From assembly GCF_009914755.1 (NCBI RefSeq), contig NC_060941.1: a DNA stretch of 64,000 bases. One strand, given 5' to 3'. This document shows, piece by piece, positions 3,269 to 12,100 of the stretch; the stretch's first letter is position 1; each line of letters begins with the position of its first letter. The notes below the pieces were generated by a model. That model saw only the letters and a program-made list of their open reading frames with translations. It was not told the origin of the DNA and made no database searches. The stretch is from the human T2T-CHM13v2.0 reference genome, Homo sapiens. The translations under genes were made by a program, and so were the position numbers.

Positions 3269-3306
3269 AAATTAATGCTTTCTATTTCCACTTAAGAAGT
3301 GCTTCC

Positions 3307-3580
3307 CTTGCCCCGCCCCGCCGCGGGACTTGGGGCGGCGCTCTACTTCTGCGGAGAAGGATCGACGAGCTTTCCGGAGAAAGATCCGCGAGCTTTCCGG
3401 AGCCGGAGCCGGGGCGAGCAGCCAAAAGGCCCGCGGAGTCCCGCTGGGCCGCCCCGGAGGAGCAGCTGAACCGGGGGCCGCACCTGCCAGGCCGACGGGT
3501 CTGGCCCAGACTGGCGCCGAGGGGTTCGAGGGGTTCGTGTGCTGTGGAGACGCAGAGGATCCAGGCGGTGCGGTCTGAGT
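3307..3580 (+). promoter_or_regulatory. CpG-rich segment carried in as the IL6ST 5' UTR
   Basis: High GC and many CpGs, with GC boxes (CCCCGCCCC) at the start of the retrocopy, inside AT-rich flanks. Regulatory activity is not shown. Confidence 0.45.
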
Positions 3581-5942
3581 GAAAGCCAATGGAAAAAGTG
3601 TGACATTTAGAAGCAGAAGACTTAGCTTCAAATCCCTACTCTTTCACTTACTAATTTTGTGATTTGGAAATATCTGCGCAAGATGTTGACGTTGCAGACT
3701 TGGCTAGTGCCAGCTTTATTTTCCTCACCACTGAATCTATAGGTGAACTTCTAGATCCATGTGGTTATATCAGTCCCGAATCTCCAGTTGTACAACTTCA
3801 TTCTAATTTCACTGCAGTTTGTGTGCTAAAGGAAAAATGTATGGATTATTTTCATGTAAATGCTAATGACATTGTCTGGAAAACAAACCATTTTGCTATT
3901 CTTAAGGAGCAATATATTATCATAAACAGAACAGCATCCAGTGTCACCTTTACACATATAGCTTCATTAAATATTCAACTCCCTTGCAACATTCTTACAT
4001 TCAGACAGCTTGAACAGAATGTTTATGGAATCACAATAATTTCAGGCTTGCCTCCAGAAAAACCTAAAAATTTGAGTTGCATTGTGAATGAGGGAAACAA
4101 AATGAGGTGTGAGTGGGATCGTGGAAGGGAAACACACTTGGAGACAAACTTCACTTTAAACTCTGAATGGGCAACACACAAGTTTGCTGATTGCAACCAA
4201 AATGTGACACCCCCACCTCATGCACCATTGATTATTCTACTGTGTATTTTGTCAACATTGAAGTCTGGGTAGAAGCAGAGAATGCCCTTGGGAAGGCTAC
4301 ATCAGATCATATCAATTTTGATGCTGTATATAAAGTGAAGCCTAATCTGCCACATAATTTATCAGTGATCAACTCAGAGGAACTGTCTAGTATCTTAAAC
4401 TGTTTGCTTAGCATTCCTATTGACAACTTTTCTGGGAGTGCTGTTCTGCTTTAATAAGCGAGACCTAATTAAAAAACACATCTGGCCTAACGTTCCAGAT
4501 CCTTCAAAGAGTCATATTGCCCAGTGGTCACCTCACACTCCTTCAAGGCACAATTTTAATGCAAAAGATCAAATGTATTCAGATGGCAATTTCACTGATG
4601 TAGGTTTTGTGGAAATAGAAGCAAATGACAAAAAGCCTTTTGCAGAAGATCTGAAATCATTAGACCTGTTCAAAAAGGAAAAAATTAATACTGAAGGACA
4701 CGGCAGTGGTATTGGGGGGGTCTTTATGCATGTCATCTTCTAGGCCAAGCATTTCTAGCAGTGATGAAAATGAATCTTCACACAACACTTCGAACACTGT
4801 CCAGTATTCTGCTGTGGTACACAGTGGCTACAGACACCAAGTTCCATCAGTCCAGGTCTTCTCAAGATCCAAGTCCACCCAGCCCTTGTTAGATTCAGAG
4901 GAGAGGCCAAAAGATCTACAATTAGTAGATCATGCAGATGGCGGTGATGGCATTTTGCCCAGGCAACACTACTTCAAACAGAACTGCAGTCAGCATGAAT
5001 CCAGTCCAGATATTTCACATTTTGAAAGGTCAAAGCAAGTTTCATCAGTCAATGAGGAAGATTTTGTTAGACTTAAACAACAGATTTCAGATCATATTTC
5101 ACAATCCTGTGGATCTGGGCAAATGAAAATGTTTCAGAAAGTTTCTGCAGCAGATAGATACTTTTGGTCCAGGTACTGAGGGACTAGTAGAAAGATCTGA
5201 AACAGTTGGGATGGAGGCTGTGATTGATGAAGGAATGCCTAAAAGTTACCACAGACTGTACGGCAAGGCAGCTACATGCATCAGTGAAGGACTAGTAGTT
5301 CCTGCTACAACTTCAGCAGTACCTATAAAGTAAAGCTAAAATTATTTTATCTGTGAATTCAGATTTTAAAAAGTCTTCACTCTCTGAAGATGATCATTTG
5401 TCCTTAAGGACAAAAATGAACTGAAGTTTCACATGAGCTATTTCCATTCCAGAATATCTGGGATTCTACTTTAAGCACTACATAAACTGACTTTATCCTC
5501 AGATTAGCTGAATGATTTTGTGCTGTTTCAGGATGTTTGCACTGAAGAAAAACAGAAAGCTTATCTGAAATTTATAAAACTTTTTGTTTTGCTACATAGA
5601 AAACAGAAGGTATTTAAATAATAAGCAGTGATATGCTTAGCGAGCACAGCTATACTGATTTTGATTAGAATAGTCATCAAAGTAGCTTAGGGACAGTTAA
5701 TATAAAAGATTAGAGGAGCAAGGTCTAGACCATCTACTTCTGCTAAAATAATTTAAAAAGAGGTCCATAGGCCCTAACTATATGAGCCCAGCTTTTGTAA
5801 TCTGACAAAAAAAATGAGGAGCAGCCTCGTGTATATCAATGTACAAAATATTCCTTAGGTCCCTTCCATTGGTGGTGATGCTGCCAGTTATTACTGGAGA
5901 AAAGGAATTCTAGAGCTTTAACTTGGCAGATTAAAAGTACTC

Positions 5943-9127: not shown

Positions 9128-9170
9128 GGTGACAGAGTGAGACTCCATCTCAAAAAAAAAAAAAAAAAAA
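9128..9170 (+). mobile_element. Extremely 5'-truncated Alu (last 24 nt plus A-tail)
   Basis: GGTGACAGAGTGAGACTCCATCTC followed by an A run. TSD AGAATAGTTTCTA at 9114-9126 and 9171-9183. Confidence 0.9.
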
Positions 9171-12100
9171 AGAATAGTTTCTAGAGGTTATTGGAGAATA
9201 GAAAGCTAAGAAAACTTGGTATACATTTACAATTGAAATATAATTACACTTTTTACTCTCAGAATATTATTCAGATTAGACTTCCTGTTTATCTTTTATA
9301 TTCTTGCATTGATATAATGCCTGATCCTTCAAAGTTCTTTCACATATTATATGATCTTCTTTATGAAAAAAAGTAGATGCTTTATTCTGATATATTCAGT
9401 TTCCCACTTTAGGCAAAAGTGGATTAATAGAATGATGAATTCAAAGTAGATGAGGAAAATCAGGCACAGAGAAGTAAAGGTAGGTACAGACCCAAATTCA
9501 CACAAGATAATGACATCACCAGCGTTTAAGTTGATCATCAAAGGCTGGGCTGGATTTGTCTTGCTGTATGTGTCAGGAAATTTATACCTATTACATTTTC
9601 CATTTTCTCAAAATAAGTCACATGATTGTAATGTTTAGCTGCAACTTTTCTCCTAATAAATAGTGTCATGAAGAATGTTATAGTGCGAAGTTTGTACATT
9701 TCAGGGTCAGTTATACAATGTGAACTCTTTATCTACGGGAATGAGAATGGAGGATCATTGAAGGCCATGATATAAACAAATTTGCATGTTGAAGCCTGTA
9801 TAAAACATGGTACAGTGAGTGAATGCCCCCATCCCCAAGAACACTTTATACATATTAAATGGATATATGATTACTGTGCAAAAATTCATTCTGGAAATGA
9901 ACATATATTTGAGCACTAATATGTAATGTACATCTTCTGCCCTAAGGAGAAAATAAATCATAAAACTTGTTTTACATTCAAAATTACTTTCCCGAGCATG
10001 TCTTAGAGTAATCTACGTGTTGATGTATGTAAATTGTATTTTAGGTAGGCAAAGAAACAAGTCTGGTTATTTATGTAAAAACTAGTCTAATAAAGTGAGT
10101 GGCTTTATCACTTTGAATCTTTAGTGTCTAAAAGTGGTGTTTAAAGTAATACTAGCACATCAGAAAACCTTGTGTGGACAAAACTAGTTCACTCACTGCT
10201 TCTGCAACTGCAGTTCCTCCCCTTAGGTTATAAAAAAAAAGGACCCAAATGTTACATGTGTTGATATTATGACTTGTCAGTTACTGATGTCTGTGGTATC
10301 CTACCCTCGTCTCTGAAACGGATAATACTGAATAATTATTAGAAAACTACAAGACTTCACACTTTGTACCATTAAAACCTAAAATTTTAATCCTATCCTT
10401 TTTTATTACAGATCAATCAGCACTCAGGAACAGAGCAGCAAGGAAAAAAAGGAAATTTCATTCATATGTTCTGTGTTCATATCTCTTCAGTACCTAATTG
10501 TTCATTTAATTTCAGCCTTATTCCTTCATAAGGGGTTTTACCACATGAAGTCATCCGATGACCCTAGCTCTTATTGTGAAGTTGAAGATGACTGGAGTAT
10601 ACTTACAAATGTTACAACTTAAAAATGTTACAAAACATTTATTAAAGCTCATATTTAAAGTAGAGCATCTAGTTTGAGAAGTAGACATCAATTATTAAAG
10701 ATGTCTTTTTTCTCCCCATTTAACTAGTTAAAACCATGACGTGTAAATGTAGAAGTAGAATAATCATATGGAATTCCCTAAAATATTTCTGTTTACTAAC
10801 ATATATTGACCAAGTACATCAAGCAGGAGAGCTCTTCCTTCATTCTGTTATAGTCCACATCATTCTAATTTTGCTCAGTTGTTATTAAAAGCATATTCCT
10901 AAACCATACACTTTTGTTTCAATAAAGTTTTATTTTGTTGGGATGAATAAAATATCAAAGTTATAAGCTACATGAGACAAAAGTTCAATTGTTCAAAAAA
11001 TTTACTGGGACAGCTTTCTATTATAGGTATTGTTAAATTATATTGCTCTGATAAGATTACTTTCTTTAAAAAGTTTGTACTTTTCTGTAAATTGAAAGAA
11101 TATGGAGTCATAAAATGGCAAGTGTTTTAGGGTTAGCGTAAAATTGGGCATTGTCATTGATTTCATAGATGATATAAACTAGCAGGCTTACAGCCTAATT
11201 CTTCTTTGGACTGGTCTTTGGCAGCAGTTCCTTTTCAGACTCAATAAACAGAATTCAGACAGATGTAAGTCAAAACAAAACTTTACAAAGCCAAGTGTAT
11301 TATCTTTTGCATTAACCTATTTTTTCCATCATACATGCTACTAGTATGTGCATTAGCATGATATTCTCATATACATTGCATTAAAAATTAAAAGGTAGCA
11401 GCTCAGGGTGAGCTCTTCTGTCATTCATTTGTTCCTAAATTTTTAAGGGCTTTTTCTCAGTCAATATTTGTATAAACTGGGTAGTTTAACTTCATTACCC
11501 ATTTCATTAAAGTTGATGGATTGTGATGAGATGCATTTAAGGCCAATAGTGACAGATTTTTTTTTAATCTCTTGAACACAAGCTTTGAATGATAACTACA
11601 GGTTTTAAGTGCTGTTAACATTAATACCATAATGTGATGTGTTAGAACCAAAGGGATATTTTAAAGGTAGATATCTGAAAATTCTCTAGTCTCAATGTAT
11701 ATATGTATTGAATATACTCTAAAAATAAATGTGCAATTTGCTAGTAGGACAATGCAGTGATTAGCATTAGGTATGTTTCTTCTTTTATATCCTAGCTATG
11801 TCCCACTTTCTTCTAAGTGCAATCCTTTCATGTTCACTTGTTGTTTTACCCCATCTACTCTAACTTCAGTTGGAAGCCTTGTCTAGAGTATAGTATGTGT
11901 TTTTACCTTTGCAGTGAATTGCATGTGCTAATTGTAACCACAGCTATTTTTATGTTGACATAACTCCAAGTGTTATATTAAATGTTCTATTTTATATTAG
12001 CTCTAATCCCTTAAGTAAATTTTAAGAAATAAATTCTTGTTCAAAAAAAAAAAAAAAAAAAAGAAGTGCTTCCTTGTCCTAAGGTCATGACAACTTTCAT

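What the first reader, a model, noticed from the sequence alone, without database searches (positions are those of the whole stretch)
3294..12073. Retrocopy inside a retrocopy: a MEIS3 mRNA copy inserted in the 3' UTR of an IL6ST processed pseudogene
Seen: two independent sets of TSD plus poly-A, nested in the same orientation. Outer: AAGAAGTGCTTCC (3294-3306 / 12061-12073). Inner: AAGACTTCAGAG (6558-6569 / 8561-8572). Both follow TT, as expected for L1 target-primed reverse transcription. Inference: the order of events is old L1M, then IL6ST copy, then MEIS3 copy. The host is heavily frameshifted while the passenger ORF is intact.
Basis: partly seen in the sequence, partly recalled or inferred. 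Interest (0 to 1): 0.8.

Follow-up and report, generated by a model that had tools for sequence, protein, structure and literature searches.

The report
MEIS3 retrocopy nested inside IL6ST pseudogene
A reverse-transcribed copy of the MEIS3 messenger RNA really did land inside an older reverse-transcribed copy of the IL6ST messenger RNA on human chromosome 17, but both pieces are already named pseudogenes and the nesting is an ordinary by-product of L1 activity.

Summary
Both direct repeats are exact at the stated coordinates and occur nowhere else in the window. In the parental IL6ST 3' UTR on chr5, the sequences either side of the MEIS3 insert are contiguous and share one copy of AAGACTTCAGAG. 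The insert (6570-8560) matches 13 MEIS3 exon blocks on chr19 without introns. An old chr14 paralog of the flanks shows the empty outer target site.

Two Alu insertions, each with its own repeats, also sit inside the IL6ST copy. The distal part of the structure was later duplicated to chr17:20.54 Mb, the MEIS3P2 locus, with about 1% substitution divergence.

The host coding region has five small frameshifts and a 1,148-nt internal deletion. The 358-codon MEIS3 frame is intact in both copies. Neutral decay is not rejected, and 6 of 6 polarisable amino-acid changes hit residues conserved in MEIS1 and MEIS2.

The MEIS3 insert keeps 84% of parental CpGs, against 24% in the CpG-poor host parts. That suggests a CpG island that stayed unmethylated and drives the annotated transcript.

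The "old L1M" step was not confirmed. Both pseudogenes are annotated, so interest is low.

The parts
3294..3306 (+). Outer target-site duplication, left copy (AAGAAGTGCTTCC), preceded by TT
   Evidence: A single homologous copy sits in the chr14 paralog of the flanks.
3310..5936 (+). IL6ST retrocopy, first segment: 5' UTR (starts upstream of the RefSeq start at 3403), coding-region remnant 3683-5287, start of 3' UTR
   Evidence: 10 exon blocks on chr5 with no introns. gp130 protein matches at E 7.7e-71 and 3.2e-64.
4399..4400 (+). Junction of a 1,148-nt internal deletion in the IL6ST copy; removes residues 219-602 of PDB chain 8d82_A
   Evidence: Parental flanks at both breakpoints lack splice signals, so both are mid-exon. 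Chain coordinates are 218 and 603.
5937..6249 (-). Alu-like insertion, antisense (poly-T first). Repeats TAAAAGTACTC at 5932-5942 and 6245-6255, possibly extending to about 18 nt
   Evidence: families D1, D4, D6. The parental chr5 site is empty with a single copy. RefSeq IL6STP1 blocks break at 5936/6250.
6250..6569 (+). IL6ST 3' UTR segment up to the MEIS3 insertion point. Includes a (CA)n run and the left inner repeat at 6558-6569
6570..8560 (+). MEIS3 retrocopy (MEIS3P1): 5' UTR 6570-7030 (GC 80%, CpG o/e 0.82), open frame 7031-8107 (358 codons), 3' UTR 8108 to about 8552, short poly(A) 8553-8560
   Evidence: 13 contiguous exon blocks of chr19 MEIS3. Pfam Meis_PKNOX_N and Homeobox_KN. MEIS1/MEIS2 homeodomain match at E 1e-37. 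CpG statistics.
8561..8572 (+). Inner target-site duplication, right copy (AAGACTTCAGAG)
   Evidence: The parent has one copy.
8573..9126 (+). IL6ST 3' UTR segment, resuming exactly where 6569 left off in the parent
9127..9170 (+). 5'-truncated Alu tail (about 24 nt plus about 20 A). Repeats AGAATAGTTTCTA at 9114-9126 and 9171-9183
   Evidence: D20, D3. The parental site is empty. Its likeness to an Alu 3' end rests on similarity to the Alu end at 3176-3207 (D3) and on recall.
9171..12060 (+). Rest of the IL6ST 3' UTR, AATAAA at 12028-12033, poly(A) 12043-12060
   Evidence: The parental alignment ends at chr5 56765062.
10089..10094 (+). AATAAA inside the IL6ST-derived 3' UTR, 23 nt before the annotated end (10117) of the MEIS3P1 transcript NR_002211.1
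   Evidence: and the hub's gene table.
12061..12073 (+). Outer target-site duplication, right copy

Best explanation
This is a stack of ordinary L1-driven retrotransposition events. An IL6ST (gp130) mRNA was reverse-transcribed into chr17 at a TCTT/AA site, giving IL6STP1 (about 3310-12060) with 13-nt repeats. Three more insertions later landed inside that dead copy: a full Alu (5937-6249), a MEIS3 mRNA copy made from the short splice isoform (6570-8560, 12-nt repeats, also at TCTT/AA), and a truncated Alu tail (9127-9170). Afterwards the segment from inside the Alu rightwards was duplicated to chr17:20.54 Mb, producing MEIS3P2. The IL6ST copy decayed, with five small frameshifts and a 1,148-nt deletion. 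The MEIS3 copy brought along a GC-rich, CpG-dense sequence that has kept its CpGs. I infer that it stayed unmethylated in the germline and acts as its own promoter. The annotated transcript starts inside it, reads through the weak MEIS3 poly(A) site and ends at an AATAAA supplied by the IL6ST-derived 3' UTR. The intact 358-codon frame is most likely a survivor of relaxed or neutral evolution, not a maintained gene. Shown here: the anatomy, the empty sites, the order relative to the duplication, and the CpG retention. Inferred: hypomethylation, promoter activity, absence of protein function, and absolute ages.
For: The repeats are exact and unique in the window. The parental chr5 3' UTR is contiguous across all three inner insertion sites, with one copy of each repeat. 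The outer empty site is seen in the chr14 paralog. MEIS3 matches as 13 of 13 contiguous exon blocks and IL6ST as 10 exon blocks, all without introns. The poly(A) follows the parental cleavage region after AATAAA. The chr17:20.54 Mb copy aligns to window 5947-14924 without large gaps and holds both inner repeats and both Alu-tail repeats. Copy-to-copy divergence is 17%, then 6-8%, inside the Alu and about 1% beyond it. The short isoform is shown by 51 nt that are present in the parent just before the downstream acceptor and absent from the copy. CpG retention is 95 of 113 in the MEIS3 copy against 7 of 29 in the non-island IL6ST parts (Fisher p 1.6e-9). With ancestor-based counting the losses are 13% against 49% (p 1.5e-6). 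AATAAA lies at 10089-10094, before the annotated transcript end at 10117 (hub table). A figure legend reports full-length Iso-Seq reads and a CAGE-supported start for MEIS3P1 (legend only). On relaxed constraint: 6 of 6 polarisable amino-acid differences (L68V, I109N, A110T, L122F, D221V, R243P) are derived in the copy at residues conserved in MEIS1 and MEIS2. The neutral N:S expectation is not rejected once half of the synonymous differences are assigned to the parent (p 0.16-0.82).
Against: Several results lean towards some constraint on the MEIS3 frame. There are no stops and no indels in 1,077 nt in either copy, while the UTRs of the same insert carry 6 indel events in about 900 nt (p 0.009). 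The host coding remnant carries 5 small indels in 1,605 nt, which predicts 3.4 in the MEIS3 frame (P(0) = 0.035). Pairwise dN/dS against the parent is 0.30. There are no amino-acid changes in homeodomain residues 249-310 of this copy, where 3.5 are expected (p 0.03, post hoc). Changes specific to this copy split 5 synonymous to 5 nonsynonymous. The order of the three inner insertions relative to each other is unknown. No methylation data were seen, so hypomethylation is inferred from CpG retention alone. The CpG-poor comparison set is small (29 sites). A much younger MEIS3 insert would also keep its CpGs, though its non-CpG divergence (2.8-4.5%) is not lower than the host's (2.8-4.2%). The RefSeq transcript starts at 7263, downstream of the ATG at 7031, so promoter placement rests on annotation I could not check.
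Confidence: 0.9

Rival explanations
1. MEIS3P1 is a working retrogene. The intact frame encodes a TALE homeodomain protein, full-length or N-terminally truncated from Met133, that is kept by selection.
For: The 358-codon frame is intact in both chr17 copies. Pfam Meis_PKNOX_N and Homeobox_KN score above their cut-offs. The homeodomain is identical to the parent's over residues 249-310. Pairwise dN/dS is 0.30. All 6 indels fall in the UTRs (p 0.009). The locus is transcribed, with a CAGE-supported start (legend only), and keeps its CpG island. The RefSeq span 7263-10117 still holds a 226-codon in-frame ORF from 7427.
Against: All 6 of 6 polarisable replacements hit residues conserved across MEIS1, MEIS2 and MEIS3 in the PBX-interaction region and the linker. 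The N:S pattern fits neutrality once parental synonymous change is allowed. After the duplication the two copies together show 5 synonymous and 11 nonsynonymous changes, and the sister copy took 3 hits in the homeodomain (S269W, A282V, I303M). The annotated transcript lacks the first 232 nt of the frame (hub table). Expression values seen in one supplement row are low, mostly below 4 TPM. Joint survival of an open frame by chance is about 0.01-0.03, which is unremarkable among thousands of human retrocopies.
Confidence: 0.1
2. The MEIS3 copy first inserted into the 3' UTR of the real IL6ST gene on chr5, in an allele since lost. An IL6ST mRNA carrying it was then retrocopied as one unit.
For: This would also leave inner repeats and an inner poly(A) inside one outer pair of repeats. 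Read-through of the MEIS3 poly(A) site does occur in the annotated transcript (hub table).
Against: The chr5 gene in this assembly has a clean empty site with one copy of the 12-mer. The model needs an extra insertion and its complete loss. No second IL6ST-plus-MEIS3 junction was found except the chr17 duplicate.
Confidence: 0.02
3. It is a single chimeric retrocopy made by L1 reverse transcriptase switching templates between IL6ST and MEIS3 mRNAs during one insertion.
For: Both parts have the same orientation and lie within one outer pair of repeats.
Against: Template switching gives no internal target-site duplication and would not resume the first template exactly where it left off. Here 12 nt of IL6ST sequence are duplicated on both sides of a complete 5'-to-poly(A) MEIS3 copy, and the IL6ST sequence continues without loss.
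Confidence: 0.005

Closest known systems
L1-mediated processed pseudogenes (retrocopies) made by target-primed reverse transcription
   Same: Both elements are intronless copies of spliced mRNAs. They end in poly(A) at the parental cleavage site, are flanked by 12-13-nt target-site duplications, and sit at TCTT/AA sites. Empty sites are shown for both.
   Different: One lies inside the other. The searches found no paper describing this pair as nested (listings and passages only). In the papers found, 'nested retrocopy' means a retrocopy inside a host gene.
RefSeq/HGNC entries IL6STP1, MEIS3P1 and MEIS3P2
   Same: These are the same loci. RefSeq's curated IL6STP1 blocks (3403-5936, 6250-6570, 8564-9120, 9178-12046) break exactly where I find the Alu, the MEIS3 copy and the Alu tail. 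MEIS3P1 (17p12) and MEIS3P2 (17p11.2) appear in the homeobox gene catalogue (table passage) and as retro_hsap_1718 and retro_hsap_1731.
   Different: The annotation does not state the repeats, the empty sites, the internal IL6ST deletion, the isoform of origin, the Alu-bounded duplication or the CpG retention. The RefSeq MEIS3P1 span (7263-10117) is a transcript that mixes MEIS3-derived and IL6ST-derived sequence; it does not mark the bounds of the retrocopy (6570-8560).
Nested transposable-element insertions (Alu-in-L1 and the like)
   Same: The logic is the same: a younger insert with its own repeats interrupts an older one, which gives a relative order. Two Alu inserts in the same host follow that pattern.
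   Different: Here the younger insert is a cellular mRNA copy that brings a CpG island and an open homeobox frame.
Retrocopies that carry part of the parental CpG-island 5' UTR and are transcribed from it
   Same: The first 461 nt of the insert are 80% GC with CpG o/e 0.82. It overlaps a RefSeq enhancer feature (6906-7404, hub table) and a reported CAGE-supported start.
   Different: Promoter activity and methylation state were not measured here. That this class exists is recalled, not taken from a call.

Membership tests
Processed pseudogene / retrocopy (MEIS3 insert) | Intronless copy of a spliced mRNA | tested here: met
   13 contiguous exon blocks of chr19 MEIS3 cover insert positions 2-1978 of 1991. 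The parental flanks show splice signals.
Processed pseudogene / retrocopy (MEIS3 insert) | Poly(A) tail at the 3' end, not templated in the parent | tested here: met
   The A-run is 8553-8560, and the parental sequence diverges after the cleavage region. The tail is short, about 8 A.
Processed pseudogene / retrocopy (MEIS3 insert) | Target-site duplication, with an empty site in the pre-insertion sequence | tested here: met
   The 12-nt repeat is exact. The parental IL6ST UTR is contiguous with one copy.
Processed pseudogene / retrocopy (IL6ST host) | Intronless mRNA copy with poly(A) after the parental AATAAA | tested here: met
   10 exon blocks on chr5. The 3' UTR aligns to chr5 56765062, then an A-run follows. 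A 1,148-nt internal deletion is an added defect.
Processed pseudogene / retrocopy (IL6ST host) | Target-site duplication, with an empty site in related sequence | tested here: met
   The 13-nt repeat is exact. The chr14 paralog of both flanks is contiguous with a single, one-mismatch copy. The orthologous empty site in another primate was not testable here.
L1 endonuclease target | T-rich / AA nick site (TTTT/AA-like) on the primed strand | tested here: met
   Both inserts read TCTT/AA on the primed strand. The consensus itself is recalled.
Functional MEIS-class retrogene | Intact frame with MEIS N-terminal and TALE homeodomain | tested here: met
   358 codons with no stop. PF16493 scores 132.6 bits and PF05920 77.3 bits. 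The PF16493 match stops at profile position 94 of 116, where the short isoform lacks 17 residues.
Functional MEIS-class retrogene | Purifying selection on the retrocopy lineage | tested here: inconclusive
   Pairwise dN/dS is 0.30 and the frame has no indels. Against that, neutrality is not rejected after allowing for parental synonymous change, and 6 of 6 polarisable replacements hit conserved residues. Primate orthologs are needed.
Functional MEIS-class retrogene | Transcript that contains the whole frame, and protein evidence | not testable with these tools
   The RefSeq transcript starts at 7263, after the ATG at 7031 (hub table). The Iso-Seq and CAGE figure was not visible, only its legend. 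The supplement of PMC7290577 was cut when stored, so its peptide and ribosome table could not be checked.
Chimeric retrocopy by template switching | One pair of repeats for the whole chimera, with no internal duplication of the first template | tested here: not met
   The inner 12-nt duplication of IL6ST sequence flanks a complete MEIS3 copy.
   The 128-nt right flank has 3 genome matches: itself, the chr17 duplicate and chr14. The 959-nt stretch 12542-13500 matches in full only those three places. Of 279 first-look candidates 40 were scored; the other 37 scored matches cover only short parts of the query, nearly all within about 12800-12955. No repeat library was available, and very old L1 fragments could escape this search.

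The most novel reading that the evidence does not exclude
The MEIS3 copy did not arrive as dead DNA. It carried a 2-kb CpG-dense block that has resisted methylation-driven decay for its whole history inside a decaying host pseudogene. That block now acts as an autonomous promoter or enhancer. Its transcript borrows a poly(A) signal from the IL6ST-derived UTR and may still produce a TALE homeodomain protein, either the full 358 residues or a 226-residue form from Met133 that lacks most of the PBX-binding region and could act as a competitor of MEIS proteins.
Probability: 0.1. Interest if true: 0.45.

Novelty: already known. Interest (0 to 1): 0.2.

Why it matters
Mostly as a clean worked example. 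Four nested retrotransposition events and one segmental duplication can all be ordered here from one assembly, and every insertion has an empty site visible in a paralog or in the parent gene.

For annotation users, the RefSeq 'MEIS3P1' span is a chimeric transcript of MEIS3-derived and IL6ST-derived sequence. Expression signatures that cite MEIS3P1 or IL6STP1 may therefore be reading the same RNA.

The two chr17 copies lie 4.85 Mb apart in direct orientation, within the 17p11.2-p12 region known for recurrent rearrangements. The link to named low-copy repeats there is recalled and was not tested.

The CpG-retention contrast is a small natural experiment: a CpG-dense insert keeps its island state inside methylated, decaying DNA.

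Tried and rejected
Age difference as the explanation for 'broken host, intact passenger': rejected. Mismatch-only divergence from the parent is 3.6-4.8% for the IL6ST segments and 4.0-6.9% for the MEIS3 UTRs (3.7% in the frame). Non-CpG values overlap at 2.8-4.2% against 2.8-4.5%. The low identities first seen (83%, 92-93%) came from gaps and microsatellites.

Exon skipping as the cause of the missing IL6ST coding sequence: rejected, because both breakpoints are mid-exon.

The chr17:20.54 Mb copy as the original: rejected. It lacks everything left of the Alu and has no exact outer repeat (0 matches), while the window copy has the complete IL6ST copy with both repeats.

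Template-switch chimera and co-retrotransposition from chr5: see the rivals.

Literature: searches for MEIS3P1 (33 papers, 25 listed), IL6STP1 or gp130 pseudogene (13), nested retrocopy phrases (3), MRG2 with Meis1-related (1, irrelevant), MEIS3P2 (13 papers, 10 listed), LCR17pA with LCR17pD (1, a retracted review, not used) and MEIS3P1 with methylation (13 papers, 12 listed) gave no description of the nesting. I read listings and term passages only. PMC5709755's 'MEIS3_p1' turned out to be probe labels, not the pseudogene.

Earlier findings of this scan were not open to the session.

Primate orthologs could not be examined, because only this genome and prokaryote genomes are held.

Full report
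**Observation**

AAGAAGTGCTTCC lies at 3294-3306 and 12061-12073. AAGACTTCAGAG lies at 6558-6569 and 8561-8572. Each 12- or 13-mer occurs twice in the 64-kb window and nowhere else, with none expected in 100 shuffles. Both left copies follow TT, so the primed strand reads TCTT/AA; this is L1-endonuclease-like, and the consensus is recalled. Each right copy is preceded by an A-run: 12043-12060 for the outer pair and the much shorter 8553-8560 for the inner pair.

**Identity of the two elements**

The held genome is the human T2T assembly, and the parents could be found in it.

- The outer element matches IL6ST on chr5 (minus strand) as 10 intronless exon blocks.
- Its long 3' UTR runs to the parental poly(A) site at chr5 56765062, about 17 nt after AATAAA.
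- Translated pieces match gp130 chains in the PDB at E 7.7e-71 and 3.2e-64.
- The inner element (6570-8560) matches MEIS3 on chr19 as 13 contiguous exon blocks whose parental flanks show splice signals.
- The inner frame has the Pfam MEIS N-terminal and TALE homeobox domains, and its homeodomain is 62 of 64 identical to MEIS1/MEIS2 chains.

Window 6245-6569 aligns to chr5 56768867..56768510. Window 8561-9130 aligns to chr5 56768521..56767947. The parent is therefore contiguous, and the 12 overlapping parental bases are the single copy of AAGACTTCAGAG. The nesting is real. A template-switch chimera is excluded, because that mechanism would not duplicate host sequence around a complete 5'-to-poly(A) insert.

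Both flanks (window 43-3237 and 12061-15152) have an 82-89% identical paralog on chr14:86030192-86036000. In that paralog the flanks are contiguous around one, one-mismatch, copy of the outer repeat.

**More nesting than reported**

Two further inserts interrupt the IL6ST copy. Each has its own repeats and an empty site in the chr5 parent.

- An antisense Alu-like element at 5937-6249, with repeats TAAAAGTACTC that possibly extend to about 18 nt.
- A 5'-truncated Alu tail at 9127-9170, with repeats AGAATAGTTTCTA.

These breaks coincide with the block boundaries of RefSeq's curated IL6STP1 alignment in the hub table. The annotation therefore already encodes the interruptions implicitly.

**State of the host**

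The coding-region equivalent is 3683-5287. It carries small frameshifting indels at 3714 (-4), 4197 (-1), 4720 (+1), about 5152-5157 (+4) and 5249 (-4).

It also has a 1,148-nt internal deletion at 4399|4400. The deletion removes residues 219-602 of chain 8d82_A, that is, most of the ectodomain up to the transmembrane helix. Both breakpoints are mid-exon, so this is a deletion or an internal RT jump and not exon skipping. The copy starts upstream of the RefSeq transcription start (about 3310 against 3403) and has a 24-nt tandem duplication in the 5' UTR.

**State of the passenger**

The frame 7031-8107 is open for 358 codons. It derives from the short MEIS3 isoform. In the parent, 51 nt encoding 17 residues of the conserved MEIS domain lie directly before the downstream acceptor, and they are absent from the copy.

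Against the stitched parental coding sequence there are 20 synonymous and 20 nonsynonymous differences and no indels, giving dN/dS 0.30.

**Later duplication**

Window 5947 to at least 17109 is duplicated at chr17:20536857 onwards, in the same orientation and 4.85 Mb away. The aligned stretch is 97.9% identical with gaps counted, and substitutions are about 1% outside the GC-rich insert.

That copy has both inner repeats and both Alu-tail repeats, but only the right Alu repeat and nothing to the left of the Alu. Divergence between the copies is 17% in the first 100 nt of the Alu, 6-8% in the rest and about 1% beyond. The duplication edge therefore lies inside the Alu, as expected for an Alu-mediated junction.

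All four inserts therefore predate the duplication, and the window copy is the original. By position this duplicate is MEIS3P2 (17p11.2). Its 358-codon frame is also open.

**Is the open frame maintained?**

Evidence for constraint:
- There are no indels in 1,077 nt, against 6 indel events in about 900 nt of the insert's own UTRs (p 0.009).
- The host's indel density predicts 3.4 indels in the frame (P(0) = 0.035).
- P(no stop) is about 0.35-0.5 for 20-30 substitutions.
- There are no replacements in homeodomain residues 249-310, where 3.5 are expected (p 0.03, post hoc).

Evidence against constraint:
- The pairwise dN/dS mixes a constrained parent with the copy. If half of the synonymous differences are parental, 20 nonsynonymous of 30 is what a neutral spectrum gives (p 0.16-0.82).
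- After the duplication the two copies show 5 synonymous to 5 nonsynonymous and 0 to 6 changes.
- Using human MEIS1 and MEIS2 as outgroups, 6 of 6 polarisable replacements (L68V, I109N, A110T, L122F, D221V, R243P) are derived in the copy, at residues that all three paralogs conserve.
- The RefSeq transcript begins at 7263, after the ATG.

I read this as relaxed or neutral evolution of a young, lucky frame, and I put about 0.1 on real protein function.

**CpG retention**

Host and passenger are about equally diverged from their parents, yet their CpGs fared very differently.

- The MEIS3 insert keeps 95 of 113 parental CpGs (81-86% in every sub-region). Its first 461 nt are 80% GC with CpG o/e 0.82.
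- The CpG-poor IL6ST parts keep 7 of 29 (Fisher p 1.6e-9).
- The IL6ST 5' island part keeps 25 of 34.
- If lineage-specific CpGs are counted as losses in the other lineage, the copy-lineage losses are 13% against 49% (p 1.5e-6).

The simplest reading is inferred and not measured. The insert behaved as a CpG island that escaped germline methylation. That fits the RefSeq enhancer feature at 6906-7404 and the reported CAGE-supported start with full-length Iso-Seq reads (legend only).

The annotated transcript then runs through the MEIS3 poly(A) site and ends 23 nt after an AATAAA at 10089-10094 in IL6ST-derived sequence. So 'MEIS3P1' RNA is a chimera of both pseudogenes and the Alu tail.

**What was not supported**

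The 'old L1M' host could not be confirmed.

- The immediate right flank has only three genome matches.
- The 959-nt stretch 12542-13500 matches in full only itself, the duplicate and chr14.
- For that stretch 40 of 279 first-look candidates were scored. The other 37 scored matches cover only short parts of the query, nearly all within about 12800-12955.
- Without a repeat library I cannot name families or exclude an ancient fragment.

**Known or new**

IL6STP1, MEIS3P1 and MEIS3P2 are named and catalogued (hub table). None of my seven literature searches turned up a description of the nesting; I saw listings and passages only.

Processed pseudogenes cover a few tenths of a percent of the genome, so some retrocopy-in-retrocopy cases are expected by chance; that is my own estimate. 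The finding is correct, well observed and ordinary. The CpG-island survival and the chimeric transcript are its only mildly interesting aspects.

Noticed in passing
window 43-3237 and 12061-15152; locus L030 (chr14:86030001-86036000): The flanks of IL6STP1 have an 82-89% identical paralog on chr14 that carries the empty outer target site. The Alu at 2921-3207 and the stretch holding the 5S pseudogene are shared with it. The Alus at about 12220-12516 and 13515-13811 are absent from chr14.
   Followed up: yes
window 5947-17109+; L005/L006 (chr17:20528001-20548000): A segmental duplicate (the MEIS3P2 locus) lies 4.85 Mb away in direct orientation, with its left edge inside the Alu at 5937-6249. 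Its right edge was not reached. A possible identity with the named 17p low-copy repeats involved in recurrent rearrangements is recalled only.
   Followed up: partly
window 6570-8560 versus neighbours: Between the two chr17 copies the MEIS3 segment is about twice as diverged as its surroundings: 1.9% against 0.95-1.0%. Non-CpG values are 1.28% against 0.66-0.78%. The cause is unexplained. A higher mutability of GC-rich DNA is one guess.
   Followed up: no
window 4399|4400: The 1,148-nt internal deletion of the IL6ST copy shows no evident microhomology at the junction. Whether it arose during reverse transcription or later is open.
   Followed up: partly
window 3352-3397: A 23-24-nt tandem duplication in the IL6ST-derived 5' UTR is absent from the chr5 parent.
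   Followed up: no
window 6400-6497 and 6504-6541: There is a 32-nt direct repeat 66 nt apart, and a (CA)n run just before the MEIS3 insertion point. These account for the low (83%) gapped identity of this UTR piece to the parent.
   Followed up: no
window about 12800-12955: A search with 12542-13500 gave 279 first-look candidates genome-wide, of which 40 were scored. Apart from the three full-length copies, the scored matches (71-92% identity) cover only short parts of the query, nearly all within this stretch. The family was not named, for want of a repeat library.
   Followed up: no
window 3307-3700: The IL6ST-derived 5' end also keeps CpG-island character: GC 61%, CpG o/e 0.94, and 25 of 34 parental CpGs retained.
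   Followed up: partly
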